Below, piece after piece: positions 3,701-51,100 of a stretch of DNA of 64,000 bases (position 1 is the stretch's first letter; every line of letters begins with the position of its first letter). The notes beneath the pieces were generated by a model that made no database searches, had not been told where the DNA came from, and saw only the letters and a program-made list of their open reading frames with translations. This stretch comes from Zootoca vivipara (taxonomy: Eukaryota). The position numbers were made by a program, and so were the translations under genes. The DNA is taken from assembly GCF_963506605.1 (NCBI RefSeq), contig NC_083277.1:98394001-98458000 (forward strand). Reading direction: 5' to 3'.

Positions 3701-6700
3701 ACCCCAATAAATAATTTAGTCCAAGTAGCTCATTAACGTCTTCCTGTTCTGGGCATGCTATAAACCAACACTGCAGGACAACAGCCTCCCTTAGCTAAAC
3801 CCCTAGCCTGGATCAAAATATATTCCTTCATCTCCCAAGAATGGGGCGTTGAGTGTTAAGTGCTCCTAATACGATGGTAAGGACAGAATATGGAGAAAAT
3901 AAGGCAACCCTTTGTTATGAACCACAGGCGCAAAGGAGGGTCTGTGCAAAAAATGGTTTCCTGCAGGGATAGCAAAGGAGGATGTCAAGAATGCCAGAAT
4001 GGCCAGTTTTAGTGCTATATTAAGCCTGCAAAACCCTCAAAGCCACTGCAGGTGTGGGTCGGACACCACAGCAGTGAGGTGTTGTCATGACTTGTCTGCA
4101 CCCAGAAAAATATTCATTCATTACTTATACAAATGATAGCATGCATCAGTTTGGCCATAACCTCCCATCAATCCACCTGGCGCCATGAGGGCACAGGTGG
4201 CAACTATCCAAGGCTTACAGATAGCTTCCCTCTCTGGGCCAACAGCCCAGCACCCCAGATAAGCACTGCATCAAAGCGAGCCAATTAGCGTATATTAAAG
4301 GAAGGGAATCTATAAACATATGTGAGCTCATCCTTGCAGCAACTCCCCATTAAATGGCATTTGCAAGCCTTCTGAGACAGTCTCGCCTTTGGTTCAACAC
4401 ACCTGCCTTTTATGAAAGGAACGGTAAAATAACATTGACAGAGTGAAAAGTTCAAAATGCACTGAATGGACTTCAAAAAAAGAAAGCATTTTATTCACAG
4501 AACCTTTGCATTCTTTTGCTCCTGCTTTCTGAATATGTAAAAGGCGACCACAATTTGTGCCCACTAAGTTGTCATAAAGTCATATGGCATATTTATACAA
4601 TAACTCTCCCCTACTGTACAAGGCAGGAACTGAAAATTATAGAACCATAACTAGCCAAATAAAATAAGAAAAGCCGTACTTGATGACTAAGGCCGTGGAT
4701 TCTTAGCCTGCTTCGTATTCTAACAGGGCCAGAGCCTACCAGAAATAATCTGACACCAAGACAATGTCTCAATGATCCTTTATGATGCTGTCACTCACAA
4801 AATCTGTGATAAAGTATTGTCTAAAGAGCCAGGTCTTCCACATTTATCAAGGCCCAAGTGGTCCTTAAACACAGAATTTACTAAACATTCCAGTGATTTC
4901 ATTACGTTGCATCTGGCTCAAGGATTACTGAAACACTTGCCTAAATTCCAGAGTACATTTCCGAGCAGACTGAATTTTAAAGGCTCAGTGATCAATTCAA
5001 GTGACAGCTATATAGCCAGGTAAGGTTGTATTCAAAGAAAGGAGAACATCTGAGAAGCAATGTAATTTTCAGTCACAAGCCATAGCTGGAAATTTCTGTA
5101 CTGCAGGATTGAAAAGTGCAAGTGAGAACCCTACACAAAATGGCTTCACACTGTACAAGTAAACAGAAGTGGGACTGATAGCGGAGGCCTTGGTAAATTC
5201 CCATTCCAGAGTGCCACCGTCAACACTTTGTGCATTGGGTGTCGGCTGCACATACTAATTACTGCTTACAAAATGCTGCCATCTTAGGGAGACTTTTGCT
5301 GAGAGGATAAAAAAAACCACAATACTAAAAGAAGAAGAGAGTAGTCAGATTTCAGTCTTCTAAAGTCTGCTTCAGAATTTTCTGGTTTGGAAAGCACACA
5401 TACACACAGAGTGAAGTACTGAAAATATCTCAATTTTTTTGTTTCTTGAATCGCAACATATAAAGCAGACATAAGGGGGGGGGGGAGAAAAATGCTGTCT
5501 GCTTGTAGTAACAGAAAAGAGGAATTATTTATATCCTACCTGCTGCCCAATCTTCTGGATCTACCTATGCCTTTTCTTACACCATTCTCCACTCAAAGTT
5601 CTCATCCTCCCTCTTTCCCCACCACAAAATTCACCTTCTCTGAATCCACATTTTCTATTTTGCTACTTGTCACTATGCAGCAACTGATGCTGCTCACCAG
5701 GTGTCTTATAAGTATATCCTACGTAACAAAAACTATTCTCGCTGACTGTCAGAAACCTGCAGCTTTTATTGCTGTATCGTTTTGCTTCACTGAGCATCTC
5801 CCCTAAGCATAATTGGGCAAAGGAAACAGCAAACATTAGTCAGGAATCTGAAGTCAACAAGAGGGGTGGCAGTCACAGCCAAACACAAGTGGCATCATTA
5901 ATTCAGAGGGCTCGACAGGGGGCACAAAGTAGCATACCTCTGACTGAAACTGAACAGGATCTGGAGTATGATAGGAGGATATTCAAGAAAAGGGATATTG
6001 AGCTTATTTATGCAAGAAACTATTGCAAATCTGTATTTCCATACATATTGCTGAACTACTGTTTGTAAGCTCAATCAATACAATAGCTTACTGTTCTGAT
6101 GATCCCCTAAAACATGCATAGGCAAACTCGGCCCTCCAGATGTTTTGAGACTACAATTCCCATCATCCCTGACCACTGGTCCTGTCCACACCCCATGGAT
6201 GATGGGTGTTGTAGTCCCAAAACATATGGAGGGCCTATGCCTGCCCTATAACTTCAAGGTTCAGAGGTTTCGTTGTGGATCCGATAGAGACAACATCAAA
6301 AGGAACAACTGCGGAGCCATGGCAGAATCTTGACTTAGGTGGCTCCCGAACGCTGATGCACTGCTCTGAACAACATAGGCCAAATGTGCCAATGTAGACA
6401 GGAGATATGGCTCAGTGGCAACATCTTCCAATACACAGGGCAGACAAGACAAATTGTCTCCAGAGCTAGGGAGGAGAGGAAGCAAGCGGGTACCAGGAGA
6501 ACTGCGGCCCATGCAGCCATCAACCCAGAGAAAGATGATCGAACAGCTAGTGTACCTTTTTCTTTGACAGCTAGCTTAGGCATGAAAAACCCTTAGCCTA
6601 GGCTTTCAAAAGCCTTTCAGGAGAAGGCTAAGCACCTTCCCAAGGGCAGAAGGAAATTCCAGACGTTAAGTATTGGGAAAGGGCTACCCTCCATGGCTTG

Positions 6701-6802
6701 CCACCACTGTTTAGTTACCTTACAGAAAAGAAGAGAGGGAACCATACCCCTTTCCCAGAAATGTGAAAGGACCACCTGTTGATGGAGGTTATCCACACTT
6801 GC

Positions 6803-6963
6803 CTTATAGAACACATCAGGCACATATTGTTCACTGCTGGATTCCTTTGCATAGCCGAGCTCTGGAGCATCACGGCATGGCAACAAGCACTCGTCACGTA
6901 CTAGAGCCATGCACTGGTTGGATACCTGGTAGCCCTCGAAGTGGACTTGGTTGTCAGGACCAC
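6803..6963 (-). CDS. NPLOC4: NPLOC4 exon 12 ([29 protein letters not shown]...VFYK), GC donor
   Basis: 161 nt; acceptor CCCCAG; homology ends at AAG|GCAAGT. Confidence 0.93.
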
Positions 6964-9900
6964 CTGGGGGGAAAAGGTACTTTTAAGCCACTCGAGAAGG
7001 AGAAGGTGAAGGTACACAGGTTGTAGCACACTCAAAATGGATATAAGATGTCATTGAGCCAATAAATGTTAAGTGCATCAAATCCACATTTTCTGCCTTA
7101 AGTACAAAGAACTCTTTTTCTGAGCCCGTATTGGCTTAAGAGCTTCAAATGGCAAATAGTACACAACTTTCCAAGAGAGGTATCCAGATAGAGGAGACTT
7201 TTAAGAAATCATATAACATATAATGAAGAGATCACACGTATTTGTGAAGTTTTATGCATTTACAAGGGTAAAACTATCTGCAAGTTGTTTTATGTTTTAC
7301 TGGGTTTCCACCATTTTCACAGCACGGCACGGTGCGTGCCAGGCCAGGCCACTGTGATTTTTATGTTGTGCTGTAGACTTTTCTTGTGCGTGCAGCGCTG
7401 AGCAACACTTTCTCATACAATTAGGAGAATTCAGCTTCATCTCACACAGTCCTTGTCTTAGCAAAAGGTATCACTGAAAAGCTTTATTCAATACTGCACA
7501 TGGAGGGCATTTGTCAAGGAAATTTTTAAACCAAAGGAAAGGAAAGATGTATATTGTTTATCAGCAGCAGCACCTCCCACCCCAGCATAAGACGAAATGG
7601 GAAGGCAGAATGACTGGCTTTAATTTGTGTGCACAAAAATCATACGGTTTTAACATTATTAACATAAGCATTTCCAAATAACCAAACTCCCATTTTGGGG
7701 AGGGGAAGGAGGTTTCCTCTTCAACTAAAGTTGAAAACACTCAGGCTTAAAAGCAGAGAATAGGGGCAAGGGCACACATGCAAGCCCCAATGCTCCTGGG
7801 TTTGCAGGCTCTCTCTTTTTAGCCTGCAGAGGGTTCCTAAGCACATGCAGTTAAGACACCACCTCATGGCCCAAAACTGTTTTCTTTTACTGGTCTCAAT
7901 TTCTGAAAAGCTTGCTGCTTTACTGGGGTGGGGGTGGAGGGTTATGGAATCTTTCAGGTGTCTGCAAAAGAGGCTGCATTTTGTTTTTTACCTGTAGCCA
8001 CCACAGTGAAAAACTTGGATCCAAAGTGACCATCTGGGGACAGGCGGCATATGTTTGGGTGCTGATTCTGAAAATGCCCAGCTGTGATGCACTCTTCTGC
8101 ACTTAAGAAATAAGCATCCTAAAGAAGGCGAGAAGGTGAGGCTGTTAAAGAGACGGAGCCATTGCATGAGCGGCATTTAAGGTAACCCAGGAGTGCGTTC
8201 TAAAATGAAGCATGGATTAGTAATTTCTAAATCTAGCACAGATGACCATCTTGGAAAATCATCACGAAGCATAGGCACTACAACCTGCAAAGCTTTAGTT
8301 TCAGCAAACAATTCCTATCACACTAGGAAAAGCAAGCTTTTTAAAGGAGATTTTTAAAATGAGAAATAAATCAGGCAAGTTTATTTGGCTTCTGGTCACT
8401 GAACTTTTAGGACACGGGTTTTATGAGCTCTCTTTAGAACTATGACAACTAAAAATTTACTGGTTTTCAGATTCGCGGAAGTTAAGATTGCCTAACGAAA
8501 GTCCACAAGCTGAGGTGAAAAACATCTTGAGCCTGACATATGGTCCAAGGTCTTCATGCTCACATCTGGTTGATGTAAAGAACGGAGGTGGCAAAATTAG
8601 GGCAGAAGGAGAACCCAGACAATAACTTCCCCATGAAAGGTTAATTTCCCCAATGTGTGATCAAACTATTAAATGAATAATGCAACGGGTGTACTTCATC
8701 ATGAGCAGGCAGGCTGTTTTAGATTTCTGCCTGATTTTCACTATAGTGGAAGTAGGCAAATCCTACTATTAGCTTATGCTACTTGGTTATGGTCATAGAA
8801 TAGTGGTTGGTTGAGATAATTCACTATAGAAGGTCCAAGTAAGGGCAGCAAATGTGTTAAAACTGTCTAGAAAGAGGATTCAGAAGGATAGGAGGAAAGC
8901 TAGACAGATATTATCCAGCAGAGGGAAGCATTAACAATAATCAGGTATGTGGGGCATTGCTATGTGCTGAGTTGAAACAAACTGCAGAATAAGAGCTTGC
9001 TTCCTGTAACCACAGCTCCAGGAGACTTGGAAGATCGAGGAAGGTATACAAAAGCACTCTTGTAAGTTTAGATAGATACAAGAATAAGTTACAATGGGAT
9101 CTTATGGTATTGGCGCTGCTGAAACATTTTAAAAACAAGCAAGATGAAGTGAAGTCGTAATTAAGGGAAAAGGAAGTAGGATTTTGTGTTTGTAGTGCAC
9201 CTTTGCCAGGTATCCAAGAATCCAGACAGATTTCAAACCATCCCAACATCCTATCCGTACAAAGCTCCTTTCTAAATCATTCATGGCTCCTCTAAATTCC
9301 CACCAAACTCATGCATTATTCTAATTTTAATAAACAAGGCCCACCCTTAAAAGCAAGGCATCAATCTACACACATAGTTCTCTGCATAAAGTGTTTTTTT
9401 CCCCATCAAAGCCTGCAAATAAAAGAGTGCAAGGACAAAAAAGAAAACTCGCTTCTCACCTTGTTCCGGCTATACCGGACAGTCCCCTTCCGTGTATCCT
9501 CTGAGACCAGATCTGTGAATATCCAGCCAACCTTAAAACACAAATGCTCATTATATTCTTCTACCTCGTTTTTTTTAAAAGGTGACCTTCCCAAATTGGT
9601 ACAAAATGTTCTTGGCTAGAGGAAGCTCTTTGAGAAAGCCTGCTCAACAGCAGCCTGAAGGAAATTACTCCCCTAGCTACGCGGACCACATTTGAATACA
9701 ATTCACACATTTGCAGTGACAACTGGTGAGACCGGCAGTTTTATGTCCCCTTACGGAAAGATCTGGAGACTGCAGGGATTCTCCTCCGCACCTCGCCTAT
9801 AAAAATACATTTACTTTTCTGTGTCCACACTGTAGAGCAGTTCACAGAAGTGCTCTCAAGATATCAAGTTTCTATGCTGGCTAATCTAAAAGGGAACCCT

Positions 9901-14483: not shown

Positions 14484-17400
14484 TGGCAGTAGGATAGTTT
14501 CTTTCCCTTCACATTGGCAGAAGCCATAGCATGCAAATAGTGCTTTCTGCAAAAGTCCAGCTTATAGGAGAAAAACGTTTCCCTCACCTCAGTGAAGAGG
14601 AAGATAAAGGTAATTGTTATTAGTTCCTGTTGAGATTTTGCAGGAGGGAGAAGTAGAAAGGTGCTGCCTGCACTTTTTGCCAAGGCCCAGCCGCAAACAC
14701 CCTTTCATGAGTTCTCCGCTCATGTCACAAGAAAGGGTGTCATCAAGGAGGATTGAGCTTGGCTAGTAAACCAAACAAAAATTCATGAACCACTGATCCA
14801 ATCAGATCTCTATCATCACAATTAAATTTATATACAGCTCTTCATTCAAGGATCGGAGGGCAGTTGACCAAAAAAACCACACAAAATACATAACATAATA
14901 ATAAAAAGTCCAATAACACACACCCATATTGAAAAGGCTACAGATAGTTTAACAGCAAAATGACTAGTTAAAGAGGAATGTTTTCACTTGGCACCCGTAG
15001 ACACTCCCTTACCTTAATTTAGAAAATTATATATTTACCCTGTTTCTCATATTTTAAGACATACCCATAAAATAAGCCATAGCAGGATTTTTAAGCATTC
15101 AAGGAATATAAGCCATACCCCGAAAATAAGACATAGTGATAGGTGCAGCAGCAATGCCGGCCGCAGCAGGAGAAGGAAGAAAAAAATAAGACATCCCTTG
15201 AAAATAAGCCATAGTGTGTTTTTTTGAGGAAAAAATAAATATAAGACATGTCTTATAATATGAGAAACACGGTATACAAATTTATTCTACTAGAAGGGAC
15301 GTGGGTGGCACTGTGGTCTAAACCACAGAGCCTAGGGCTTGCCGATCAGAAGGTCGGCAGTTCAAATCCCTGCGACGGGGTGAGCACCTGTTGCTTGGTC
15401 CCTGCTCCTGTCAACCTAGCAGTTCAAAAGCATGTCAAAGTGCAAGTAGATAAATAGGTACCGCTACAGCGGGAAGGTAAATGGTGTTTCCTTGCGGTGC
15501 TCTGGTTTCGCCAGAAGCGGCTTAGTCATGTTGGCCACATGACCCAGAAGCTGTCTGTGGACAAAGGCTGGCTCCCTTGGCCAGTAAAGCGAGATGAGTG
15601 CCGCAACCCCAGAGTCGTCCACAACTGGACTTAACAGTCAGGGGTCCCTTTACCTTTACTAGAAATTTCCATTCCGTTGTGAAGTTGTAGTTTCCCCTTA
15701 ACAATCATCTGAACCACACTACTCAACTTCATCTTGCAGCTATGAGACCCAGCGGCTAGTGCCACCTAGTGACTTAATACGACCTTACAGCTTCAAAAAT
15801 TTCCAGTCCACCATAAGCTGCTATACTGTAGTTCAATAGCGGCTGGTGCAGCAAGGCAAAGCATTAGAGCTCCCTGCCACCTTTTTGTCTGTGGGCATCC
15901 AGAAGGCACTGGGGCCAAACACTGCACCACAATAAGGCTGAGGATATGGGGGTGGCCCTGCAAGGCTAAGGGTGTGTGTGTGTCAATTAGCATTGCTCCC
16001 CAAGGCTGCAAAATGAACCCCACTTATCTGGGAGTTAAGTCCCATTGAATTCAACAGGACTTCTGAGTAAACATGGTTAGGATTGCACTCTAAATCCCAT
16101 CAATTTCAATTGTACTTCCTGCAATATTCATAAGATCAGAGCCTCTTTCAATTACCCTTTTCTGCCATCTAGAGCTCTGTTGAGATGCGGAAAAGAAGAG
16201 GTTGTTGCTGCCCCCTTGCCCCAGTCAATCTGTCTAGTCCACAGCAGTCGCAGCCATATTTGCAAGGAATCTGTTTGTTGTTTGCTCTGGCAGTAGCTTC
16301 TCTCAAGGTGGCCAAAGCAAACAATAAATGGGTTCTTTGCAGAGACGGCTACAAATGCTGTGGGCAAGACAGGTTCTCCATGGGGTATGAAGCAGTGCCT
16401 CCCCCCCGCCCAAGATACAGTGAGTCATAATCCCATGCACAATTACATAGAAATAGACCCCACTGAGCTCAGTGAGAACTTATTTGCATATATAAATGCA
16501 CAGTATCAGGACTATAAAGTCACAAAGCTGACACATGTGCCATTTGTGGAGAGGCGTCATCACCACAAAATAGCTGCATGCTTTAAAGTTGACAGTTTTA
16601 CTCCAGTGTTAGCAAGTGCTAAGGACTATTTTGTTTCCCAGGCAACTTTCCAAATGGAGCAAACAAAGACATTTTACAGTGGAGTATCTGTTACCTGTGG
16701 AGGTTCATAAATGGCAGCAACCTCAGCTCGGATACCTAGAGGGATGTCCTTGTGCTCTGTATACTTCCCGTATAAGTACCCAAAATGCTGGTTTCCTGTT
16801 TTTCTCCAGAAGTCCAAGAAACGATCTGCAATTGTATGGTTCTCAAACATGATGTTATCCACATGCCTGTATTTCTGCCATTTGAAAAGCATAATAATGT
16901 ATCAAGCAAAGCCCTTTGATAAGGATCAATGATGTTCAACACAGTCATCCAGGATACATAAGATTTGAGCTTGCTATATTCTAATTCAATTCTGTCTTAC
17001 AGACTGACACCTCTTGATTCTCAACAGACTTGCCTAGGCTGTATCAGTGAGGAAAACAGTGGATAGAATTATTTGCCTCTACTATTCTACCACTTTTTCA
17101 AAACAAAAAACAAAAAAAACCCACCACCACAATAGTTCTCGCATGGCAAATCAGCAATCTAGTTCAGCTGTTAATGCTCAACCATGGTTTAGTGCTATAC
17201 ACGAGCCTTAGACCAGGGGTCACCAACCTAAGGCCCATGGGCCGGAAGCGGCCCGTGGAGGTCGTTTGACCAGCCCACAAGCCGCCCCCTGAATCGAGCT
17301 GCCTGCTCGTGTGCTGCGCTAAACCGGCACAGCGCAGAAATTGAGTCTGCGCATGTGCAGACGCCGAAAATCACTGGCGCGCACGCGATCCAGCCCACAG

Positions 17401-26400: not shown

Positions 26401-29400
26401 CCCTACAACACAAGTCTCAGATGTTATCTCCACATGGAGTTCATGACACAAAAGTGGAAGCAGAAATATCTGAAATGCACACTCAAAGAATCCACAATAC
26501 ATATTATGTAGACATTGTATGGGTGGAAATTTCAAATTAAGCTACACTTGTCAGCAATTAATGTTGACGTCAATGCTGAAACAGGGTTAGGCCCATTTCA
26601 GGGAATAATTTTCACTCCGGAAAACAGGGAGCAGGCAAGCCCAATTGGTGAACTCCCAATTGTTTAAACCTGGTTAAGGAAATTTCTAAATGCAAGTGGA
26701 ATACAGATTAGAAGAGGAAAATGTCACCAAGATCTTTCAACTCTTCCTTTTTTTTTTTTTTTTTTTTTTTAATTTTTTTTTTTTTAGTTTAAAATACTTT
26801 ATTAAATATTACACATATTAACAATAAAATCCAAATAATTCAACACAACATAACATAACATGAATCAACACAAATAAATACATTAATACAAACATAAATC
26901 AGAATTGTACAAAAAAAAAAAAAAACCAAAGCTTATTAGAAACTTATTAAGAAAGGAAGAGGAAAAGAAAAAAAAAAAAAAAAAAAAAATTTAGGAAAAA
27001 AAAAAATGAAAAAAAAAAGAAAAAAAAAAAGAAAAAGGAAAATACAAAAAGTTAACTTCCCAGCATTTACATATCGGTTTCCTATTATACTGAACGTTAC
27101 TATGCTTTCCTTTATAAAACACATCATTTACATTTATCTCATTTTCTTCACCCATTCTTACAATTCCCATAACCTTGTGTGAATTTATTCAAAGCAAATT
27201 ACCCATCTAGCACTAATACCTTCAGCTCTCAAGTAATCCTCTACGTACTTCCATTCTTTTATCCATTTCTGTTTGGGGACTTTCCTAATTATCGCGGTTA
27301 ATTTAGCTAAATTCATAAATTCCACTAATTTAATGCGCCAATCCTGAATAGTCGGTACTTTCTCTCCCTTCCAATTTTGTGCTATTAATAATCTGGCCGC
27401 GGCACAGGCGTAAAGCAAGATGTTCTTTCTATCTGCAGGCACATCCTCCGGGATCAGGCTTAACAATAAGATCTCGGGTTTTTTCTCTAATGTCCATTTT
27501 AATATTTTTTTAACATTCTCATAAACTTCTGTCCAAAATTTATTTATTTTTTTACAACCCCACCAACAGTGGAAATAATCCCCTTTAATTTCCTTGCACT
27601 TCCAGCATTTATCGGCATCGTTTTTATATATTTTTGCTAACTTTCCAGGTGTTAGATGCCACCTATAGATTATTTTCCAGATGTTTTCCCTGATTCCCAT
27701 GCAGGCTGTGAAGTTAATGTCAATTCTCCATAGCCTTTCCCACTGTTCACTATATATTGTTCTTCCCACATCCTGTGCCCATTTAATCATCACATGCTTC
27801 ACCGCCTCGTCCTTCATCTCCCATTCTAATAAAAATTTATATATTCTTGCCAATGGTTTTTTTGGGTTATCAATTAATAGATCTTGTAACTTTGATTTGT
27901 TCTCCAAAAAACCTATCATTTTATGTTTATTAAATGCACTTTGTACTTGACAATATTGAAACCAACTTTGACAGAAGCACTCAACCTGTTGATATGATTT
28001 TAATCTATATTCACCATCTACTTTTTCCACAAGATCTTTATACGTCTGCCACTTCCCTCCCTTCGGATTACTATCCATTGCCACCATTTCGAAAGGTGAT
28101 GCCCACCATGGGGTTTTGGGTTCTAATAGATTCTTATATTCTTCCCATATATATAATAGTGATTTTTTAATTATATGATTTGTAAATAGATTATAATCCC
28201 CCTTTCTTTCTTTCAACAGGTATGCATGCCATCCTCCACAATTCCTGAATCCTTCTAGTCTCAATAAATCTCTGTCTTCTAGAGTGAACCATTCTTTCAT
28301 CCAACATAAGCAGGCTGCCGCATGATACAGCTTTAAATCAGGGACCCCCCACCCTCCTCTCTCTTTAGCATCCGTCAACAATCTAAACTGAACCCTCGCT
28401 TTCTTTTTTTGCCAAATAAACTTACTAAGGTCTTTTTTCCACCTCTCAAACGTCTCTTTTTTAATTTTTATGGGCAACATTTGAAATAGAAAAAGCATTT
28501 TAGGCAAGACCATCATTTTAATCGCCGAAATTCTACTTGCTAACGTCAAATTAAGCCCGGTCCACCTTTCCAAATCTTCTCTAATTTTGATCCATATTTT
28601 GGCATAATTATCCTTGAATAAATTTATATTATTTGGTGTTAATATTACCCCTAGATATTTTATTTTATTCGTCACTTCCCAATCCTTTATTTGGCTTAAA
28701 TCCTCTATATCTGTCCTCCTCATATTTTTTGTCATTATTTTAGTTTTCCCTCCATTTGTTTTAAATCCTGCCAATTCCCCATACACCGCCAATTTCTTAT
28801 CCAAATTTTTTATTGTCTCTATCGGATCTTCCATCATAACTACCAAATCGTCAGCAAAAGCTCTGATTTTATACTCGCTTCCTCCCACTCTAATCCCTTT
28901 AAATTCTTTATCCTCCCTGATATCTCGAATCATGAATTCTAGAGACCAAATAAACAATAATGGGGACAGCGGGCATCCTTGACGCGTCCCTTTAGTTACC
29001 TCAAATTCTTCAGTTATCCTTCCATTGATTATTAGCCTTGCCACCTGTTTATTATAAATTGCATTAATTCCCTTCATGAATTTATTCCCTACCCCTAATT
29101 TTTCCAAAGCCTCTTTCATAAATTCCCAATTTAGGTTATCGAATGCTTTCTCAGCATCTAAAAATATAAATGCTATCTTTTTACCTGGGTTCCAGTCGGC
29201 ATACTCTAATAAATCCAAAACAATTCTTATATTACTATTCATTTTCCTTTTAGGTAAGAATCCCTGCTGTTCACCTCCTATTACTCTATTTAGTATCCCT
29301 TTGATTCTGCTTGCCAGTATCTCTGCGAATATTTTATAGTCAATATTCAACAGGGAAATCGGTCTGAAATTCCCCATCTCTTCTTTCCCGCCTTTTTCTT

Positions 29401-32400
29401 TCGGTATTAATGTTATGTATGTCTCCTGCCAAGTCTTTGGTATCACCCCTCTTCCTAAAATTTCATTTGTTATTCTTTGGTAAATGTCACCAAGATCTTT
29501 CAACTCTTCCTGTTCATGGGTAAAAGTAGATGAGAATTACTGTGGAAACATAATCTGTTGTTTAGTTGTATAGGTAATTAGGCAAACTATCTTATTGCAA
29601 CTCTGGCAAATGCACAAAATAAACCCCATTAGAGCTGATAATATGGTTATAAATTAAACAGTTGTCCGAATCAGAAGTTCTACTTTGAAAATGGAGCTCA
29701 GTGTAAGAAAGCCAGTCTTGGATTATGGAATTTGCTCTCAATGGGGTTTCACCTAGCCACTTCCCATAAAAAGAACTTGTTCCATTGGCAGTGGGTAACA
29801 AAGTTTAGTACAATGGGGGTGGGGAAGAGCCCCTGCTGAAAAAGGGCTAAGAGCTTAACCCCACTGCAGTAAGCCTCAGGTGCTGAAAATTCAGTGTTTT
29901 CCAAGTATCACTGTGGTTCAGGGCAGTCTCAGAAAGAGCCTCTGCCATTCTTCCATGCTTCTGAGTCAACCAGGGACTGTCCTCAAAGTTCTCCAAGAAC
30001 AGTGGAGACCCTCCTCCAACGTCATCCTCTTGATAGAGCAAAAATAAATAAAAATGGGAAACTTGCAAGTGTATTTGTGGGTCCTTGTCTACTGGAAGAT
30101 CTTTCCTGCATTTTGACATATGCCACTGTACAGGTTCTATAGGTGAAAATTTGAATTACAGTACTTATGGTTTTGGTTTCAGCTGCATTGCAATTTTAGG
30201 CCGTTTTTATGAAGTTATTGTTTATGTTGCATACCACTTTGGTTATATTTCAGTTAAAAAGGCAGCCATACAGTAAGTTATAATAACACAGTCCAATTTG
30301 AAACCATTTTTTCTTAAGTTCCACTGGATTCAATATAACTCAATTCCTGGACTACAGACTCAGGCTGCATAAAGACATCTGATTTATTTTGCTTGGCAAC
30401 TAAATTATGGAAGAGGTTCCCAACTAACAGATGAATATTGCACTACAGTCACTGTTTCGGCTTATGAGCATACAAATCAATCCCACTAGTCCCCAAAGAA
30501 GCAAGCATAAACACAGAGGCCACCACACTACTTGTAAAGCTTGCAAGTGCCTGGTGTATTGAACCACTACATCTGGTTCTCTGCCATCAAAAGCTTTTTA
30601 TATATAAAAAATACACTTCTAATTGAAACAGCACTGGTGACATTTTACAATGTACTAAAAAGTTAGGCTTTGATAAAGGTTTCAAATGTGGGTTTACAAC
30701 CAAAGGGTGTTGGAGTTTAATTTTGGAAATATTAGCTTCTTGTGTGATGTGTGTTGAACCACAAAGCCATCACTACTCTCTTCTAATTATGTTAAATCAT
30801 CGTCAAAGAAAGCTTCTGGGTAAATCCAACCAAATCCAAAAGAGCAGGTGCACAAACTGGCTGTGATGGGGAAACAGAGGTTACCTATTGTTGCTTCCTT
30901 AGAAGAACAGCAAAGAATATGCCAAGCTAGAATACCTTTTTCAAAAACGTTGCAGCAGTTTCCCGTTTTGTTGCTGTGATGCGTTTCACTCCATCGGGTG
31001 ATTGGACACGAATTATCTATTAAGAAAGGCAAAGGTTTTTGAAGAAAATTAGAAATAAAACAAAACTGTGAAGTTCTGAGTTTTGTGGCAAGAGGGGCCA
31101 AACATAGAGAACTAGCTTTTGAATGTAGGAAATAAAGCAGCACAAATGCAGCCTGTAAGTTCTTAGGAGGACAGTGATACAAAATTTAATGCAGGAACAT
31201 ATAACTGGCAGGAAGAGGAGTAAGTGGAATAGTAAAATATAAAGCATTTTCATATTATCCTTTTTAAAAGAATCAAAGACACACAATAATAGGTTTCTAA
31301 GTTCTTTTCCTGATAAGAGACTGAGTTTACAAATCACAAACAGCAGGAATTATATACAAGCTTAGCAATAAACATTCATGAGTTTTCAGACTGTTCTCTT
31401 AGGAGGAAAAAAATTACATCAAGTAGCATCATTAACTGCCAGTGGCTTTCATTTTAGCATAGGTAGCAGGGCCAATCGCACCTAGAGTTCAAACACCACA
31501 GCAGTACAGTGCATTACAACAGTGGAGCAATCTCTTGAGATGGAAAAAGAAAGGCAGCTATCTACTCTGGGAAAACAACAGTTCAAGGTAATTGTCCCTA
31601 GGAAGGTAATCTTGGGCCTGAAGCACTGCTGCCTTGTTTTACACTTCTGAAGCTTTCATACATAGAGGTCAAGAAAAATAATCTGATACCCCTTTGCAAC
31701 TTTGCCCTGTGAAAAAATGAAGGGCAACCTCAGCAGGAGAGCTATCCTTAAGTCCCTAGAAGGTAACCTAGGGGCCACAGGATTTTGTGGATCTCCCTCT
31801 CCATGGGTGGAACAAAAGGCCTGCCTCTTGGTGGGTGGAGTATGGATGCCTCCCCCCCATCATGTAGGAGGAGAGCATGTTGAGGGAGGCGCTGGATCCA
31901 AATTCCTCCTGTTCCCAACACACACAGAACAGGGACAGTGCGAGTGCATTGGCTCTGGTTCCAACATACCATATTGCCCTGAATTTAAGCCTCACTTTTC
32001 CCCCACATTCCAACCGTGAAAAGTTAAAGTGTGGCTTATATTCACGACCTTACAGTATGCAGCCAGGAGCGCAGGGCAAACAGCTCCAGGAGTGTGGCAA
32101 AGCGGCGCCCGACCCGTGTGTCCTCTCCTCCAAGGCCGGGAAGGGAGAGAACGAGGAAGGAAGGGGAAAGGCCACCAGCAACACAGCGCGGGAAGGGAGC
32201 AGCTTATATTTGGGTATTTCTTCTTTTTTCACCTACAATTTTAAAGGTGCAGCTTATATTTGGGTGCAGCTTATATTCGGGCTAATACGGTACTTATTTT
32301 CCCATCTACTGGGAACCATGGAAGGGATTTGTCTTTTAAAAGACTGCAGAAAGGGAAAGAGGAAAGGAAACAAACTTTACTTTTTATACTGTTGGCATAG

Positions 32401-40139: not shown

Positions 40140-43100
40140 GTAATTATTTTCATTTGCATATTGTTTCTGAGTTTACCCTTGTCTTTGGAGAGCTTTAGTC
40201 CTCTGTATATGGCATCGTTTCCCCATTTGTGTGGAGGGGAAATCCAGTGAGANNNNNNNNNNNNNNNNNNNNNNNNNNNNNNNNNNNNNNNNNNNNNNNN
40301 NNNNNNNNNNNNNNNNNNNNNNNNNNNNNNNNNNNNNNNNNNNNNNNNNNNNNNNNNNNNNNNNNNNNNNNNNNNNNNNNNNNNNNNTAGCCCATCATGT
40401 TGCACGGTCATCAATATGAAAATATTAAGAATAATCCTAAATAAGTTTACTTCGAAGTAAGTCCCCTGAGTTCTATCAGACTTTCTTCCAATGAAATATA
40501 CTTAAGACTGTGTATTAGCCTGTCCACTAAGAAGAATGCCTTAAAATGACGTTCCTTGGACTTACATACGTCCCTTTTGTTCTATTCCAAGTTCAATCAC
40601 ACCATCCATCACTTTGCCTGCCACTTCCCTCAATCATTTTAAGCGGTCTCTTCTCCCTCTTGAATGGATCACAAATGCCTTGTCCTTCCCATCAGACTTC
40701 TCCATAATGTTGCCCTCTGCCCACTATATCTCAGCAGTGATACATCAGAAACTTCTGTCATCACTACGCATAGGGCAGATCCCCGTCATAATTTTAAAAC
40801 AAATGGTTCCTTCCCCCCCCCAAAGAATCTTGGGAACTGTAGATTATTACATTGCAGCTCTGTAAGGGGTAAACTACAGTTCCCAGGATTCTCTGAGGGG
40901 AGTCATGTATATTAAATGTTCGTTGAATGTACTTTAAATGTATGTCGTGGATCTTCCCTTAATCTATGCTTCTGCCTCCAGCTGATTTATAAAGTGGAGC
41001 CACAGGGGAACAAGTCTTCACTGACTAGATGATAATCCAGCCGTAATGGATTATACCCCCCTGCCATATAAGTCGATCAAAAATCTCCTTTCTGCCCTGT
41101 CCTCTGCTTTCTACCCTACTGTTATGCCAAAGGCCTCCAGTTAAACAACAGGATATTCCGGGAGGAATTAATGTACCTCCCTTTTTGGTTTTGTTCCTCA
41201 TCTCTGACACTTGGTCTACGTTTTCTTTGGTTCTCTTCTTTGTTTAGGCGGACAAAGTGGACATATTTTGCCCCTCTAATGCACAGGGCTCCCTGCTGAA
41301 CCCCAGCAGAGAAAGAGAATCATGGCATCTTAGGAAACAGACAAGAAAATGGCACCTCTGCCCCTCTTCCCATCACCCCCTGGATTCTCTTAGCCACTGT
41401 GTTAAATACTTGACCTTTGTTTGGAATCTGGCCTTCTCCATTACAGGATTGCTCATTTTGGCCATCGGGATCTGGGGTCTCTCCGACAAAGAGTCACTGG
41501 CAAGTGAGCGGATCACTTATTTGGGCAGCGACCCCATGCTCTTTTTTGTATTAGCGGGTCTTGTAGCCAGCACGATCTCTCTCTTGGGCTGTCTAGGAGC
41601 CCTCTTTGAAAACACCTGCCTCTTGAAGCTTTTTACGGGAGGAATCATGGTGTTTGTGGTCCTGGAAACTCTGGGTGGCATCGTTCTCTTTTCTCTGAGA
41701 CACCAAATCAAGACCTCCTTGCAAGAGTCCCTTACGGTGGCCGTGCTACGATACCAGGATGACCCAGATCTCAAATTCATCATGGATGAAATTCAGGTGG
41801 GCCTGCAGTGCTGTGGGGTGGAATCCTACCTAGACTGGAAAACAAATTTGTGAGTATAAGCCTACTTGGAGAATTCCCCTTGCCCTGTTCTGTTAACACC
41901 TAGGAACCACGTCGTCATCACCCATCAATCAAAATTGCTAATAATGCCATCGGTTTTCTTTTCATCCACGCTTTATGTGATTGAAAGAAAACTATGTTGT
42001 TGTTCTCCTCACATGATGCCTGCAAGAAGCCTGGGAAGCCCAGGGGGACAGTGTGTGATGTGACCGACGCCCATCTTGTTTCACCATCATGGTCTTCACA
42101 TTTGGGGGGGGGGTTTCACCTGAGCTACTAACCTGGGCTACTAACCTGGGTTGATCCTCTTGCTTGCTTTCATTTTAAGAGACCTAACCGAGTTCATTTC
42201 TTACCAGAAACATGCTGAGAGAGGCCCTAGTCCAGGCCATAGCTGCCAAGTTATCCCTTTTTTAAAGGGATTTTCCCTTATGCTGAATAGGCTTCCTCGC
42301 GAGAAAAGGGAAAACTTGGCAGCTATGGTCCAGGCACCCCCAAACTTTGGCCCTCCAGTTGCTTTGGACTACAATTCCCATCATCCCTGACCACTGGTCC
42401 TGTTAGCTAGGGATCATGGGAGTTGTAGGCCAAAACATCTGGAGGGCTGCAGTTTGGGAATGCCTGCCCTAGTCCATAAGCAGTTTAGCCACACTAAAAT
42501 CAGTGGGACATGTTGCTTGTGAATAACTTAAGCATGACTAATTTTCTCTGGATTGGCTCCAGAATATCCAAGGAAACCTCACAGCCACAGACAATTTTCT
42601 CAATGGTTTCTGTGCTGCATCTCCTTAATGTTTCCACACACACATTCTTTATTGAAAAAGGAATTGTACCTAGTATAAAATTATAAGTGCACAAGGTAAA
42701 ATAAGATGTGGAAAGAAATAACAGTTGTTAAGATACTCCCATGTAAAAAGACAACAGAAAAAAACCTTATAAACATTGAGGTATCAGGTTAAGGTATTAG
42801 GATAAGTACAATAACAAGCTGTAAGTTTTTTGTGGGTTTTTTGCCCTTTATAAAAGCATATTGTGCCATGTTACTGTCTGTAAATGCAAGAAGTGCTGGA
42901 TAATTTTTAAGGCTGTGTCAGTTTAGTCTCATCTTTTGTTCAAAGATTTGTACAGATTTATCATTTTACTCAGGACCTGCATGTGCACACCCACTGACAA
43001 TTGGCGCAATTGGCTTTTAACACTGGCAGGAAGTAGTGTATGAGCTGCTGCGGCTCGTTCTTGTTAAGAGGCTTCCTTAGCTGCTGCATCTGGTCTGTCT

Positions 43101-43878
43101 CTGTGCTCCCATCCTTTGGAGTGAGCTGGTAAGTGGTGCACAGCTTGAATCCACACCTGCCACCTCTCCCTGTGAACTCAAACCCTAACAGGCAGTGTCA
43201 AACCTGCTGCCTCCGTCCATTCATTCAGCAATGCATGCATAAAGTCAATTACGCATGGATCACACTGTGCACACAATTTCAGTTGCCGGGTGTGTAGTTT
43301 CCCTTTCCAAAGTACGCCTCTGCATGCATTGGTCCTGGTCAAGTTAGCGAATCCATGTGCAGACTATCCTTACCAGCAGGAATGTCCTCCTTTGCCTGGG
43401 TATCTTCTGCATTCACATGCAGAAAACGGAGTGGGTGTGCTGGAAGAGGCGGAGAGCCTCTGTGCCTTAGCAGCAGGTGAAATGATTCTTCCTGTTCTTA
43501 CATTCCAGATATTTTAACTGTAGTTCTCCAGGCGTGCAAGCCTGCGGCGTCCCATCTTCCTGCTGCCTGGATCCGCTGGAAAACGGCACCATCCCGAATT
43601 CCCAGTGCGGCTTTGGCACCCTGGCCCTGGAGGAGTTTGTGGCTCAAAGCATTGTGTATCTCGGAGGCTGCGTTCCCCAGCTGAGCAGATGGCTCAATAA
43701 TCATGCAGGAGCAATTGGCTTGTATTGTGTGCTTCTGATTGTGATTGAAGTAGGAAGCTTATTACTGACCACTAAGCTCCTGGCAGGCATTGCCCTTGCT
43801 AGGGCTCGGTATTCCAGTGAGAGGGAGGAAACATATTTGCTCTCCTATCATCAGAGACAAAAGGGATTTTTCTCATGA
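40104..43878 (+). CDS. TSPAN10: Tetraspanin-10 (oculospanin), three coding exons, ~335 aa
   Basis: Exons 40104-40139, 41248-41849 and 43509-43878 join in frame; CVKYL, DPML, YQDDPDL, CCG and YFNCSSPGVQAC motifs of TspanC8 tetraspanins; synteny between NPLOC4 and PDE6G. Confidence 0.93.
40253..40387. other. Assembly gap (135 N) in a TSPAN10 intron
   Basis: Run of N. Confidence 1.
41248..41849 (+). CDS. TSPAN10: TSPAN10 large coding exon (TM1-TM3 and start of large extracellular loop)
   Basis: Polypyrimidine tract plus AG at 41246-47; ORF 41257..; GTGAGT donor at 41850. Confidence 0.95.
42233..42466. mobile_element. 136-bp hAT MITE with a 90-bp hAT MITE (42238-42327) inserted in its left TIR
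   Basis: Outer TSD CCCTAGTC; inner TSD GTCCAGGC; inner TIR CATAGCTGCCAAGTT. Confidence 0.88.
43509..43878 (+). CDS. TSPAN10: TSPAN10 last coding exon (YFNCSSPGVQACGVPSSCC...TM4, stop)
   Basis: TTCCAG acceptor, in frame with ORF 43534..43878. Confidence 0.94.
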
Positions 43879-43902
43879 TCTGCTGCAAACGTAAGAATCC
43901 AG

Positions 43903-44599
43903 TTACAGGTAGGTAGCCGTGTTGGTCTGAGTCGAAACAAAATAAAAAAATTCCTTCAGTAGCACCTTAAAGACCAACTAAGTTTTGAAGTGTTTCTCCT
44001 ACTGGTTTCTCCGTCTTGTGGTTCCTGATATCAGATTTATGTCCATTTATCCTTTGGCGTAGGGTTTGGCCTGTTTGTCCAATATAGAGAGCTGAAGGGC
44101 CCTTAAATGGACATAAATCTGACATCAGGAACCACACGACAGAGAAACCAGTAGGAGAACACTTCAATCTCCCAGGACATTCTATACAATATCTCAAAGC
44201 AGCTGTTTTATTACAGAATAATTTCAGAAACAGACTGGAAAGAGAAGTTGCTGAATTGCAACTCATTAGCAAGCTTAAAACCATGGAGCCACCTGGAATG
44301 AACAAAGACATAGGATTCTTATCTCATTATACATGATCAAGCTTTCCTTAGCATCTCAGCCCTTGCTTACCCCCCCCCCCAGACCAATTGCAGTCATTAA
44401 CAGTCGTTAACAGTCATCAACAGGTTTACCACAGGTTTACCACCCATCACCCCCACCCCCACCCTCTGAATATACATAAGGGTCTGGCTGCTTCTGTTTC
44501 AGTGTATCTGACGAAGTGTGCATGCACACGAAAGCTCATACCAAAATAAAAACTTAGTTGGTCTTTAAGGTACTACTGAAGGATTTTTTTTAATTTTGT
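43903..44599. mobile_element. Penelope-like element fragment with inverted segment (GIY-YIG endonuclease remnant, pseudo-LTR)
   Basis: LYIGQTGQTLRQRINGHKSDIRNHKTEKPVGE on the minus strand and a partial copy on plus; inverted ends; flanking TAAGAATCCAG / TAAGAATTCAG duplication. Confidence 0.88.
44504..44541 (+). ncRNA. Minimal type I hammerhead ribozyme motif (Penelope-associated)
   Basis: GTAT-CTGACGA-A-GTGTGC-AT-GCACAC-GAAA-GC-TC-ATAC: catalytic core, 6-bp stem II, 4-bp stem I, palindromic AGCT stem III. Confidence 0.75.
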
Positions 44600-45619
44600 T
44601 AAGAATTCAGAATACTGTAGAAGCGCTGTTATGCCCCACCAGGTCCAGTATACTATTTAATTCCTCAGAGCAGGGTTTGCACCTTGTATGAGGAACAGGG
44701 AGATCCTTTGTGCTTGGAGTTCTCTTGCTTACGTCATACCCTTCCTCCTTATTCTCACTGTCCCCGATTCTCCTCCGGCTGCATCCCGTTCCATCAGTAC
44801 TGCCTCTCTTCCTCCGACACACCCTCCAAATATGCATAGAGAAAGAAGAAGAGTGTTGCAGCAGAACAGCTCCCTTTCAGGATCTGGTCTCCATGTGTTG
44901 TGGAAAGTTCTTGTGGAAACCCATCCATTAGTTTCCTGTGGCCCTTTCTCAAAGCCGCTTTCTGAAATGTGCCTGGGAAGCATTTTCGGCCCAACAACCG
45001 ACTTCCCCCACCATTCCCAAAACCAACACTCCCAAGGTATGTTCCTCTGCGGTGGCAAGATTTAGGGAACATGCTCCTGTAGGAATCTTACTTATCCCCT
45101 CTCTGTATGCCTTTCAGCAGGCAGTGAAAACAGAGATTACAAACCAGCAAACCTTTTATGGCTACCCTACAACCTCTCTGGAGAAACTATATCCTATTCT
45201 ATATGTGCAGAATCCATATTTTTCAACCTAACTCCTTTCCACTGCAGTATTCCACTCACATCACACTGCATCTTAAAGGTTCCCTGTTGCAATTAAAGTC
45301 TCTCTCCCTGCCCTCATGCTTCCTTGTTTGAGCCCAACAAGTAGTGCTGCAATAGCTTTCATTGCATGAGTTCATCTGCACACAGGAGGCTGATCACTCC
45401 AGTATTTTTTTTTGCTCGGTCTTTGATTAAGTGTCCACAACATCTTCACAAGGGAGGAGGGAGAGAAAACCGGAACAAATCTGCCCTCCTTCTGGTGAAC
45501 TCCTTGGCTGCCCCACCAGGTCCAGTGGTTGCTAGCCACATTGCATCCACTGCTTTAAACCTCCCCACCACCACCACTGCCCCACTTCCAGGAAATAGAT
45601 AAGAAGGAAGAGAATGTCA

Positions 45620-45957
45620 CAGACCCTCCAAGTGTCCCTATTTTCCAGGGATAGTCCCTGATTTACAGAATCAGGGTTTCTGATTTGATCCTGGAATGTC
45701 CTGCTTTTCCTTAGGACGTCCCTATTTTCATCGGAGGAACATTGGAGGGTATGGAGTTATCCAACTCCCGAGCCACCTGAAGGCAATCCTGTATAGTGTA
45801 TAGGGATTCATTTTTTTTAATGTTTAACATTTTATTATGTTTTTATATGTGTTGGAAGCTGCCCAAAGTGGCTGGGGCAACCCAGTGTGGAGTAGTAAAA
45901 TTATCATAATGGAATGGGACATCCCTATTTTCATTGGATAAATGTTGGGAGGGTATG
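45620..45957. mobile_element. Non-autonomous TIR element carrying an L2-like 3' fragment (second copy at 49002-49350)
   Basis: CAGACCCTCC...GGAGGGTATG termini; internal GGAAGCTGCCCAAAGTGGCTGGGGCAACCCAG is shared with free L2-like tails. Confidence 0.7.
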
Positions 45958-50037: not shown

Positions 50038-51100
50038 CATAGAATCATAGAGTTGGAAGAGACCACAAGGACCATCCAGTCCAACCCCCTGCCAAGCAGG
50101 AAACACCATCAAAGCATTCCTGACAGATGGCCGTCAAGCCTCTGCTTTAAAGACCTCCAAAGAAGGAGACTCCACCACGCTCCTTGGCAGCAAATTCCAC
50201 TGCCGAACAGCTCTTACTGGAAGTTCTTCCTAATGTTTAGGTGGAATCTTCTTTCTTGTAGTTTGAATCCATTGCGCCGTGTCCGCTTCTCTGGAGCAGC
50301 AGAAAACAACCTTTCTCCCTCCTCTATATGACATCCTTTTATATATTTGAACATGGCTATCATATCACCCCTTAACCTTCTCTTCTCCAGGCTAAACATA
50401 CCCAGCTCCCTAAGCCGTTCCTCATAAGGCATTGTTTCCAGGCCTTTGACCATTTTGGTTGCCCTCTTCTGCACACGTTCCAGCTTGTCAGTATCCTTCT
50501 TGAATTGTGGTGCCCAGAACTGGACACAGTACTCCAGGTGAGGTCTGACCAGAGCAGAATACAGTGATACGAATATTTCCCTTGATCTAGATGCTATACT
50601 CCTATTGGTGCAGCCCAGAATTGCATTGGCTTTTTTAGCTGCTGCATCACACTGTTGACTCCTGTCAAGTTTGTGGTCTACCAAGACTCCTAGATCCTTT
50701 TCACATGTACTGCTCTCAAGCCAGGTGTCTCCCATCCTGTATTTGTGCCTTTCATTTTTTTTTTTGCCCAAGTGTAGTACTTTACATTTCTCCCTGTTAA
50801 AATTCATCTTGTTTGCTTTGGTCCAGTTGTCTAATCTGTTAAGGTCATTTTGAAGTGTGATCCTGTCCTCTGGGGTATTAGCCACCCCTCCCAATTTGGT
50901 GTCATCTGCAAACTTGCTCAGGATGCCCTCAAGCCCATCATCCAAGTCATTGATAAAGATGTTGAATAAGACTGGGCCCAAGACAGAACCCTGTGGCACC
51001 CCACTAGTCACTACTCTCCAGGATGAGGAGGAGCCTTTGGGTTCAGTCAGTCAGCCAGTTACAAATCCACTAAATGGTAGCATTGTCTAGCCCACATTTT
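50038..51100 (-). mobile_element. 5'-truncated CR1 LINE (RT C-terminal part and 3' tail)
   Basis: ORF 50214..51011 has [19 protein letters not shown] and [13 protein letters not shown]; terminal ATTCTATG repeat. Confidence 0.95.

What the first reader, a model, noticed from the sequence alone, without database searches (positions are those of the whole stretch)
44504..44541. Minimal hammerhead ribozyme in sense orientation downstream of the TSPAN10 stop codon
Seen: GTAT CTGACGA A GTGTGC AT GCACAC GAAA GC TC ATAC. This contains the CUGANGA and GAAA core, a perfect 6-bp stem II, a 4-bp stem I (GUAU/AUAC), a palindromic AGCU in place of stem III, and a predicted CUC cleavage site after 44537. 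Established: Penelope-like elements carry minimal hammerheads that are thought to cleave as dimers through the palindromic stem III. Inference: the motif lies ~630 nt after the TSPAN10 stop on the same strand and just before an AATAAA (~44546), so long TSPAN10 3'UTR isoforms could be cleaved, possibly in trans with Penelope transcripts. That would couple host mRNA stability to transposon expression.
Basis: partly seen in the sequence, partly recalled or inferred. Interest (0 to 1): 0.7.

Follow-up and report, generated by a model that had tools for sequence, protein, structure and literature searches.

The report
Jumping-gene hammerhead stub in lizard TSPAN10
This tiny hammerhead-ribozyme motif is one of about 18,000 identical copies carried by a Penelope-type jumping gene; this copy sits in a broken stub inserted behind the TSPAN10 gene, is missing at that site in related animals, and likely does not control the gene by cutting its RNA.

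Summary
The motif is real, but it is ordinary transposon cargo. It is the minimal hammerhead in the end repeat (pLTR) of a Neptune-type Penelope-like retrotransposon. The genome holds 17,884 exact copies of its 34-base core, one per 80 kb, so about 0.8 are expected in any 64-kb window.

This copy lies in a 700-base, two-armed, 5'-truncated insertion (43901-44600) with an 11-base target-site duplication, 22 bases after the TSPAN10 stop.

A spliced-looking TSPAN10 contig from another animal of the best holders' species label, and a DNA contig of a second species, bridge the site without the insertion. It is therefore lineage-restricted, not a conserved regulator.

Cleavage looks unlikely. Stem I is not predicted to form in context. 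Two copies prefer an unproductive 14-pair duplex. Genomic copies do not pile up at the cut site. Published metazoan minimal hammerheads are inactive alone. No RNA from an insertion-bearing allele was seen, so cleavage is not excluded. This scan has noted the same kind of motif in other genomes.

The parts
41248..41849 (+). TSPAN10 large coding exon
   Evidence: open frame; 39 homologs at E<=1e-40, most named tetraspanin-10; splice sites read from sequence
43510..43878 (+). TSPAN10 last coding exon, stop TGA at 43876-43878
   Evidence: Pfam Tetraspanin, E 2e-7; RNA-like contigs of X10 and X17 begin at 43509
43892..43902 (+). left copy of the 11-base target-site duplication (last 2 bases shared with the element end)
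   Evidence: one mismatch to the right copy; length >=11 in 0 of 200 random pairs of places
43901..43986 (-). left arm 1: antisense pLTR end with the long 'tail'; supplies AATAAA at 43941 and a splice-donor-like CAG|GTAGGT at 43908/43909 on the TSPAN10 strand
   Evidence: 95-100% identical to family copies; family reads end at 43901/43902; complementary to 44549-44600; donor read from sequence only
43985..44103 (-). left arm 2: antisense piece of the GIY-YIG endonuclease coding region
   Evidence: 93-97% identical to family copies; Pfam GIY-YIG E 6e-4, below the curated cut-off; 56-base inverted repeat with 44104-44159
44104..44336 (+). right arm: C-terminal 77 codons and stop of the RT-GIY-YIG ORF (5'-truncated)
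   Evidence: 150 of 150 scored genome matches at 91-100% amino-acid identity, 8,018 candidates; contiguous with RT in L031
44337..44600 (+). right arm: pLTR, ending at the short (tail-less) end; contains AATAAA at 44545
   Evidence: family reads end near 44596
44504..44541 (+). minimal type I hammerhead motif; predicted cut after C44537
   Evidence: 17,884 exact genomic copies of the 34-base core with position 7 free
44600..44610 (+). right copy of the target-site duplication
44650..45471 (+). host 3'UTR, joined to exon 3 without the insertion in another animal; host ATTAAA at 45292
   Evidence: X10 record 1

Best explanation
The motif is the standard pLTR hammerhead of an abundant Neptune-type Penelope-like retrotransposon, carried into the TSPAN10 3'UTR by a truncated insertion that other laid alleles lack, and it is likely a passenger that does not cut TSPAN10 mRNA to any useful degree. 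Shown: family membership, copy number, two-armed anatomy, target duplication and empty sites elsewhere. Inferred mechanism of insertion: the element's endonuclease cut both strands about 11 bases apart, and each free end primed reverse transcription from the 3' end of an element RNA, one from the long (tailed) start and one from the short start. The two short cDNAs were joined head to head, leaving inverted arms. Inferred effect on the host: on this allele the likelier effects are early polyadenylation at the element's AATAAA (43941), which would end the mRNA before the hammerhead, or a long hairpin between the inverted arms. Cleavage would need a second element RNA or the element's protein.
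For: 17,884 exact copies, 0 for the reversed control; 0.79 expected per window. The same 38-mer, with position 7 free and at most one further change, lies at the matched place in 28 of the 29 other loci; the call's pattern found none at the matched place in L030. RT and GIY-YIG lie in one frame in a sister copy. 15 of 30 position-ordered copies have element ends in both orientations, mostly one long and one short. 11 of 13 other two-armed copies examined have 10-17-base duplications. Empty site: X10 joins 43902 to 44650 with 25 letters in place of 747, and X16 joins 43890 to 44652 with 38 in place of 761. The stub has 10 private differences in 694 columns, close to the 14 in 1,214 flank bases where this haplotype differs from letters that X10 and X16 share; this fits insertion near the time the haplotype split. 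Predicted stem I probability is 0.00 in 3 of 3 contexts, and the inverted arms pair with probability near 1. The dimer through the stem II palindrome is -28 to -31 kcal/mol against -11 for the active-like dimer. Copies starting at the cut site are not enriched. Papers: a single Schistosoma minimal hammerhead showed no cleavage and dimers low cleavage (PMC4209133). The Anolis Poseidon hammerhead cut only with the element's protein, and no RNA-seq reads ended at its site (PMC11167929).
Against: The copy is intact at every core position and lies in sense within the span of the host UTR. Family RNA is plentiful in one run (7,812 reads laid from about 6% of X21, most on the element), so partners in trans could exist. 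No transcript of the insertion allele was seen, and X21 had zero depth on TSPAN10 exon 3. Folding energies ignore Mg2+, tertiary contacts and proteins. None of the nine best DNA holders (X1-X9) was laid, so allele frequency is unknown. The empty alleles carry 25 letters where simple removal of the element and one duplication predicts 39; this 14-base shortfall is unexplained.
Confidence: 0.9

Rival explanations
1. The hammerhead cleaves long TSPAN10 mRNAs in trans with element transcripts or with help from the element's protein, tying mRNA level to transposon expression, as an accidental allele-specific effect.
For: The core is intact and in sense; the host UTR spans the site; family RNA is abundant in X21. 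Protein-assisted cleavage was shown in vitro for the Anolis Poseidon hammerhead (PMC11167929).
Against: Stem I is unfavoured and the stem II palindrome trap is far more stable. An AATAAA lies 560 bases upstream inside the insertion. Family reads show no pile-up at 44537/44538; the only one listed is at 44482 (fragmented libraries have little power). Copy starts are not enriched at the cut. In PMC11167929 the proposed help comes from protein binding near the RT start site, and here the matching stretch of the pLTR end is predicted to be locked in a hairpin.
Confidence: 0.05
2. The motif is a domesticated, selected regulator of TSPAN10, like the Clec2 3'UTR hammerhead of mammals.
For: Its position between the stop and the host poly(A) signal resembles Clec2 (PMC6765202, passage).
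Against: It is absent from 2 of 2 bridging alleles, one of them under the best holders' species label. It is identical to the family motif, with no gained stem III. A neutral estimate gives roughly 100-250 sense copies in 3'UTRs genome-wide (with assumed gene number and UTR length).
Confidence: 0.01
3. The insertion alters TSPAN10 3'-end processing by means other than the ribozyme (new AATAAA, new splice donor, dsRNA editing or retention). This is compatible with the best explanation.
For: AATAAA lies 63 bases after the stop. A donor-like site sits at 43908/43909 (sequence). Inverted arms of 48 and 56 bases are 94-95% complementary and predicted to pair.
Against: There are no RNA data for this allele, and motif matches alone are not function.
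Confidence: 0.35

Closest known systems
Minimal hammerheads (min-HHR) in pLTRs of metazoan Penelope-like elements (Cervera and De la Pena 2014, PMC4209133; parts 1-2 of 4 read, supplements not seen)
   Same: Type I topology, short helix I (4 bp), enlarged helix II, extra base between positions 9 and 10.1, G10.1-C11.1 pair, palindromic 15.2-16.2 with no loop 3, thousands of dispersed single copies from truncated elements; reported in Neptune elements of fishes and in reptiles (turtle, snakes).
   Different: Nothing of kind. The count here (17,884 exact) exceeds the 4,000-9,000 quoted for coelacanth and Xenopus, and the family is uniform rather than heterogeneous.
Neptune-type EN+ Penelope-like elements with pLTR, inverted 5'-truncated copy and one-sided 30-40-base tail (Craig et al. 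2021, PMC8557442; passages read)
   Same: [quoted passage not shown]
   Different: This copy keeps only 77 codons and the pLTR. The clade call rests on motifs; no RT tree was built.
Poseidon element of Anolis carolinensis, PAc (Frangieh et al. 2024, PMC11167929; parts 1-2 of 4 read)
   Same: Lizard PLE with a pLTR hammerhead; two RT start sites that bound the tail; both DNA strands cut and extended; no reads at the cut site.
   Different: Poseidon lacks the CX2-5CxxC linker that this family has. No activity was measured for this family.
Clec2 3'UTR hammerhead of mammals (seen only as a passage in review PMC6765202)
   Same: A hammerhead between the stop codon and a poly(A) signal.
   Different: Clec2's motif is bipartite, found in several mammals and shown to cleave in vitro. 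This one is minimal, partner-dependent, transposon-borne and missing in relatives.

Membership tests
PLE minimal hammerhead | Core CUGANGA, GAAA, U16.1-H17 | tested here: met
PLE minimal hammerhead | Extra base after A9, G10.1-C11.1 pair, helix II longer than 4 bp, short helix I | tested here: met
   A44515; G44516-C44529; 5 bp with a 4-base loop; 4-bp helix I
PLE minimal hammerhead | Palindromic 15.1-16.1 in place of helix III | tested here: met
   AGCU at 44533-44536
PLE minimal hammerhead | Located in the pLTR of a PLE | tested here: met
   lies 170 bases after the GIY-YIG stop, here and in sister copies
PLE minimal hammerhead | Covariation in the helices | tested here: inconclusive
   14 variants in the held loci are single changes or position-7 changes, none compensatory; the family is too young
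PLE minimal hammerhead | Self-cleavage as a dimer or with protein | not testable with these tools
   indirect tests negative or weak
Rfam hammerhead families | Match to a covariance model | tested here: not met
   no hammerhead family among 9 matches at E<=10
EN+ Penelope-like element, Neptune type | Single ORF with RT then C-terminal GIY-YIG | tested here: met
   L031 568-aa frame: RVT_1 E 2e-11 and GIY-YIG E 4e-5, both above cut-off
EN+ Penelope-like element, Neptune type | [quoted passage not shown] | tested here: met
   both are present in the frames of L031, L032, L033 and L036 (read by eye)
EN+ Penelope-like element, Neptune type | pLTR, inverted truncated copy, one-sided tail, variable target duplication | tested here: met
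EN+ Penelope-like element, Neptune type | RT phylogeny places it in Neptune rather than Nematis | not tested
   no reference RT set was fetched; both clades share the linker (PMC8557442)
Domesticated 3'UTR ribozyme (Clec2-like) | Conserved at the orthologous site in relatives | tested here: not met
   absent in X10 and X16 bridging contigs
Domesticated 3'UTR ribozyme (Clec2-like) | Stable helix III allowing cleavage as a monomer | tested here: not met
   no helix III; stem I probability 0.00 in context
Non-LTR retrozyme | Tandem repeat units, each with a hammerhead | tested here: not met
   one hammerhead in the window; the inverted arm stops at the equivalent of 44549, short of the motif

The most novel reading that the evidence does not exclude
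The filled and empty TSPAN10 alleles form a natural experiment. On the filled allele the stub's hammerhead is switched on in trans by element RNA or protein and cuts the mRNA at 44537. Thousands of such stubs would then make a transposon-sensitive decay network over the hundred or more host 3'UTRs expected to carry one in sense.
Probability: 0.04. Interest if true: 0.65.

Novelty: new member of a known kind. Interest (0 to 1): 0.12.

Why it matters
As found, it matters little: it is a known motif in a known kind of stub, expected about once per window in this genome. The small value is practical. A presence/absence insertion in an expressed gene's 3'UTR gives an allele-specific in vivo test of whether metazoan PLE minimal hammerheads ever cut a host mRNA, which the papers read leave open.

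Tried and rejected
Rfam scan: no hammerhead model matched; the miRNA-family hits at 44021-44134 are the element's inverted arms. The loose core pattern is at chance level. A DNA search of the genome with the tail found nothing because common words are skipped, so it is uninformative. X21 raw RNA had zero depth on unique TSPAN10 sequence, so it says nothing on this locus. X17 (organism C) has a loose end at 43890 that reads like the empty site, but no listed record bridges it, so it is not counted. Splicing as the reason X10 lacks the element was rejected: the contig leaves at 43902, before the donor-like site, and the DNA-like contig X16 lacks it too. Precise deletion in relatives was rejected as less parsimonious, since X16 (3.9% different in the flanks) is more distant than X10 (2.0%). 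Cut-site test: 302 copies differ just 5' of the cut, against 137 and 120 at the neighbouring positions, out of about 14,600-15,000. In the first 30 loci of each set, 9, 25 and 22 were truncations, giving about 91, 114 and 88, so there is no enrichment; the excess at the cut is point change of C17. Eight of the 25 share flanks of other repeats; without them the estimate is about 78. The protein atlas gave no answer. Lunse et al. 2017 on dimer cleavage is not held; only its citation in PMC6765202 was seen. Paper searches 'TSPAN10'+'hammerhead' and a five-term host-gene search needing four terms found 0 papers. Supplements of PMC4209133 were not read and may list this or a sister lizard motif.

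Full report
Observation. The 38 letters are at 44504-44541 as written. The numbering fits a type I minimal hammerhead with the predicted cut after C44537. A full descriptor with core, both helices and the paired 15.2-16.2 finds this one site in the window and none in 200 simulated windows, whereas the loose core pattern is at chance level. Stem II cannot be 6 bp with a 2-base loop; it folds as 5 bp with a CAUG loop, and its 14 bases are a perfect palindrome. Rfam has no matching hammerhead model at E<=10. The upstream gene is TSPAN10, and the top homologs are from lizards. Frames that I recognise from recall as NPLOC4, PDE6G and OXLD1 flank it.

What it is. The 171 bases around the motif have 2,329 candidate matches in the genome; the 40 scored gave 41 matches at 94-100%. 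The 34-base core occurs exactly 17,884 times (8,883 + 9,001; reversed control 0), one per 80.5 kb, or 0.79 per window. The 77 codons at 44104-44336 match 150 of 150 scored places at 91-100%. In sister copies that frame extends into a reverse transcriptase (L031: RVT_1 and GIY-YIG above cut-off), with the CX4CxxC linker that PMC8557442 (passages) gives for Neptune and Nematis but not Poseidon. The motif is therefore the pLTR hammerhead of an EN+ Penelope-like element, the class described in PMC4209133.

Anatomy of this copy. The insertion spans 43901-44600. It has an antisense pLTR end with its tail (43901-43986), an antisense endonuclease piece (43985-44103), and then the sense endonuclease end and pLTR (44104-44600). 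An 11-base duplication with one mismatch flanks it. 11 of 13 other two-armed copies examined have 10-17-base duplications, against 1 of 200 random pairs at 10 or more (one listed locus, L011, was not examined). 15 of 30 position-ordered copies show ends in both orientations, mostly one long and one short. This matches the two RT start sites and the two-strand cutting and extension reported for the Anolis element (PMC11167929). Priming from both cut ends is my inference from that paper and the anatomy.

Not conserved. Four of 23 listed runs were laid. X10 carries the same species label as the best holders and is guessed to be RNA. It has one 1,268-letter contig that starts at the exon-3 acceptor with 29 further letters, has no intron depth, covers 43509-43902 and resumes at 44650-45471 with only 25 letters between. 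X16 (another species, guessed DNA) has one contig covering 43401-43890 and 44652-45192 with 38 letters between. Both bridging records lack the element. X17 has a loose end that reads like the empty site but no bridging record. The host UTR thus normally runs across this place without a ribozyme. The stub's private changes (10 in 694 columns) are about as many as this haplotype's own flank changes (14 in 1,214 among the rows shown), which fits an insertion about as old as the haplotype. Against a tidy picture, the empty alleles are 14 bases shorter than simple removal predicts, contigs drop rare variants, and allele frequency is unknown.

Would it cut? In three contexts of 181 to 1,442 bases, stem I has predicted probability 0.00 and stem II 0.93-0.95, while the inverted arms pair almost fully, starting 8 bases after the motif. 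For two copies, the duplex through the stem II palindrome (-28 to -31 kcal/mol) far outweighs the active-like dimer through AGCU (-11). I infer that this duplex is unproductive because it holds the two AGCU apart. Genomic copies show no excess of starts at the cut (about 91 against 114 and 88 at the neighbouring positions). The 7,812 reads laid from X21, nearly all from other repeat copies, show one pile-up, at 44482, and none at 44537/44538; this is a weak test. X21 did not express TSPAN10. In print, a single Schistosoma motif showed no cleavage and dimers little (PMC4209133). The Anolis motif cut only with the element's protein, cleavage was not needed for insertion in vitro, and no reads ended at the site (PMC11167929). 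On the other side, the motif here is intact, in sense, and element RNA is abundant, so assisted cleavage is not excluded.

Mechanism and verdict. Most likely (0.9) the hammerhead is a passenger of a lineage-restricted stub. If the insertion affects TSPAN10 at all (0.35), early polyadenylation at 43941 or the arm hairpin are likelier routes than cleavage (0.05), and domestication is contradicted (0.01). Searches for TSPAN10 with hammerhead and for host-gene cleavage by such motifs found no paper in the held library. Earlier notes of this scan on other genomes describe the same kind of motif and stubs; none lies near this place or resembles this sequence. A preprint (10.64898/2026.07.22.740005, passages) notes that related retrozyme copies that overlap exons tend to lie in 3'UTRs. 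Interest 0.12; new member of a known kind.

Noticed in passing
window 44632-44649 and 45509-45526: A perfect 18-base direct repeat. The first copy lies in the 39 bases after the right duplication, where the empty alleles have only 25 letters; it may be a templated insertion private to this haplotype.
   Followed up: partly
window 44497-44506 (family coordinates): 9 of 30 position-ordered copies begin within 10 bases just upstream of the hammerhead, and family reads have many loose ends at 44502 and 44513. This may mark the element's RNA start; the sample was chosen to contain the motif.
   Followed up: partly
window 44482: 44 molecules of run X21 begin at this base against a depth of 172; unexplained, possibly an RNA end of the family or duplicates.
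   Followed up: no
G000:C1:2777823-2779650: Four hammerhead copies at an exact 598-base spacing on one strand: a tandem array that could form dimers in cis, retrozyme-like.
   Followed up: no
window 43906-43914: The antisense tail of the element reads as a strong splice donor on the host strand, 30 bases after the TSPAN10 stop; every antisense tail in a gene would offer one.
   Followed up: no
loci L099, L107, L112 and L101, L108, L109, L125, L126: Several stubs that start one base after the cut site share the same upstream flank of another repeat, suggesting a composite repeat or a preferred target.
   Followed up: no
window 27188-29536 (-), 50217-51050 (-), 45620-45950: A 783-codon open RT frame that looks LINE-like, a 278-codon CR1-like RT piece (family names recalled), and another high-copy repeat near 45620-45950.
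   Followed up: no
window 43509-43880 versus 44660-45400 in run X17: In organism C the exon contig has depth 154 but the distal UTR only about 8, so most TSPAN10 transcripts there may end early or take another 3' path.
   Followed up: no
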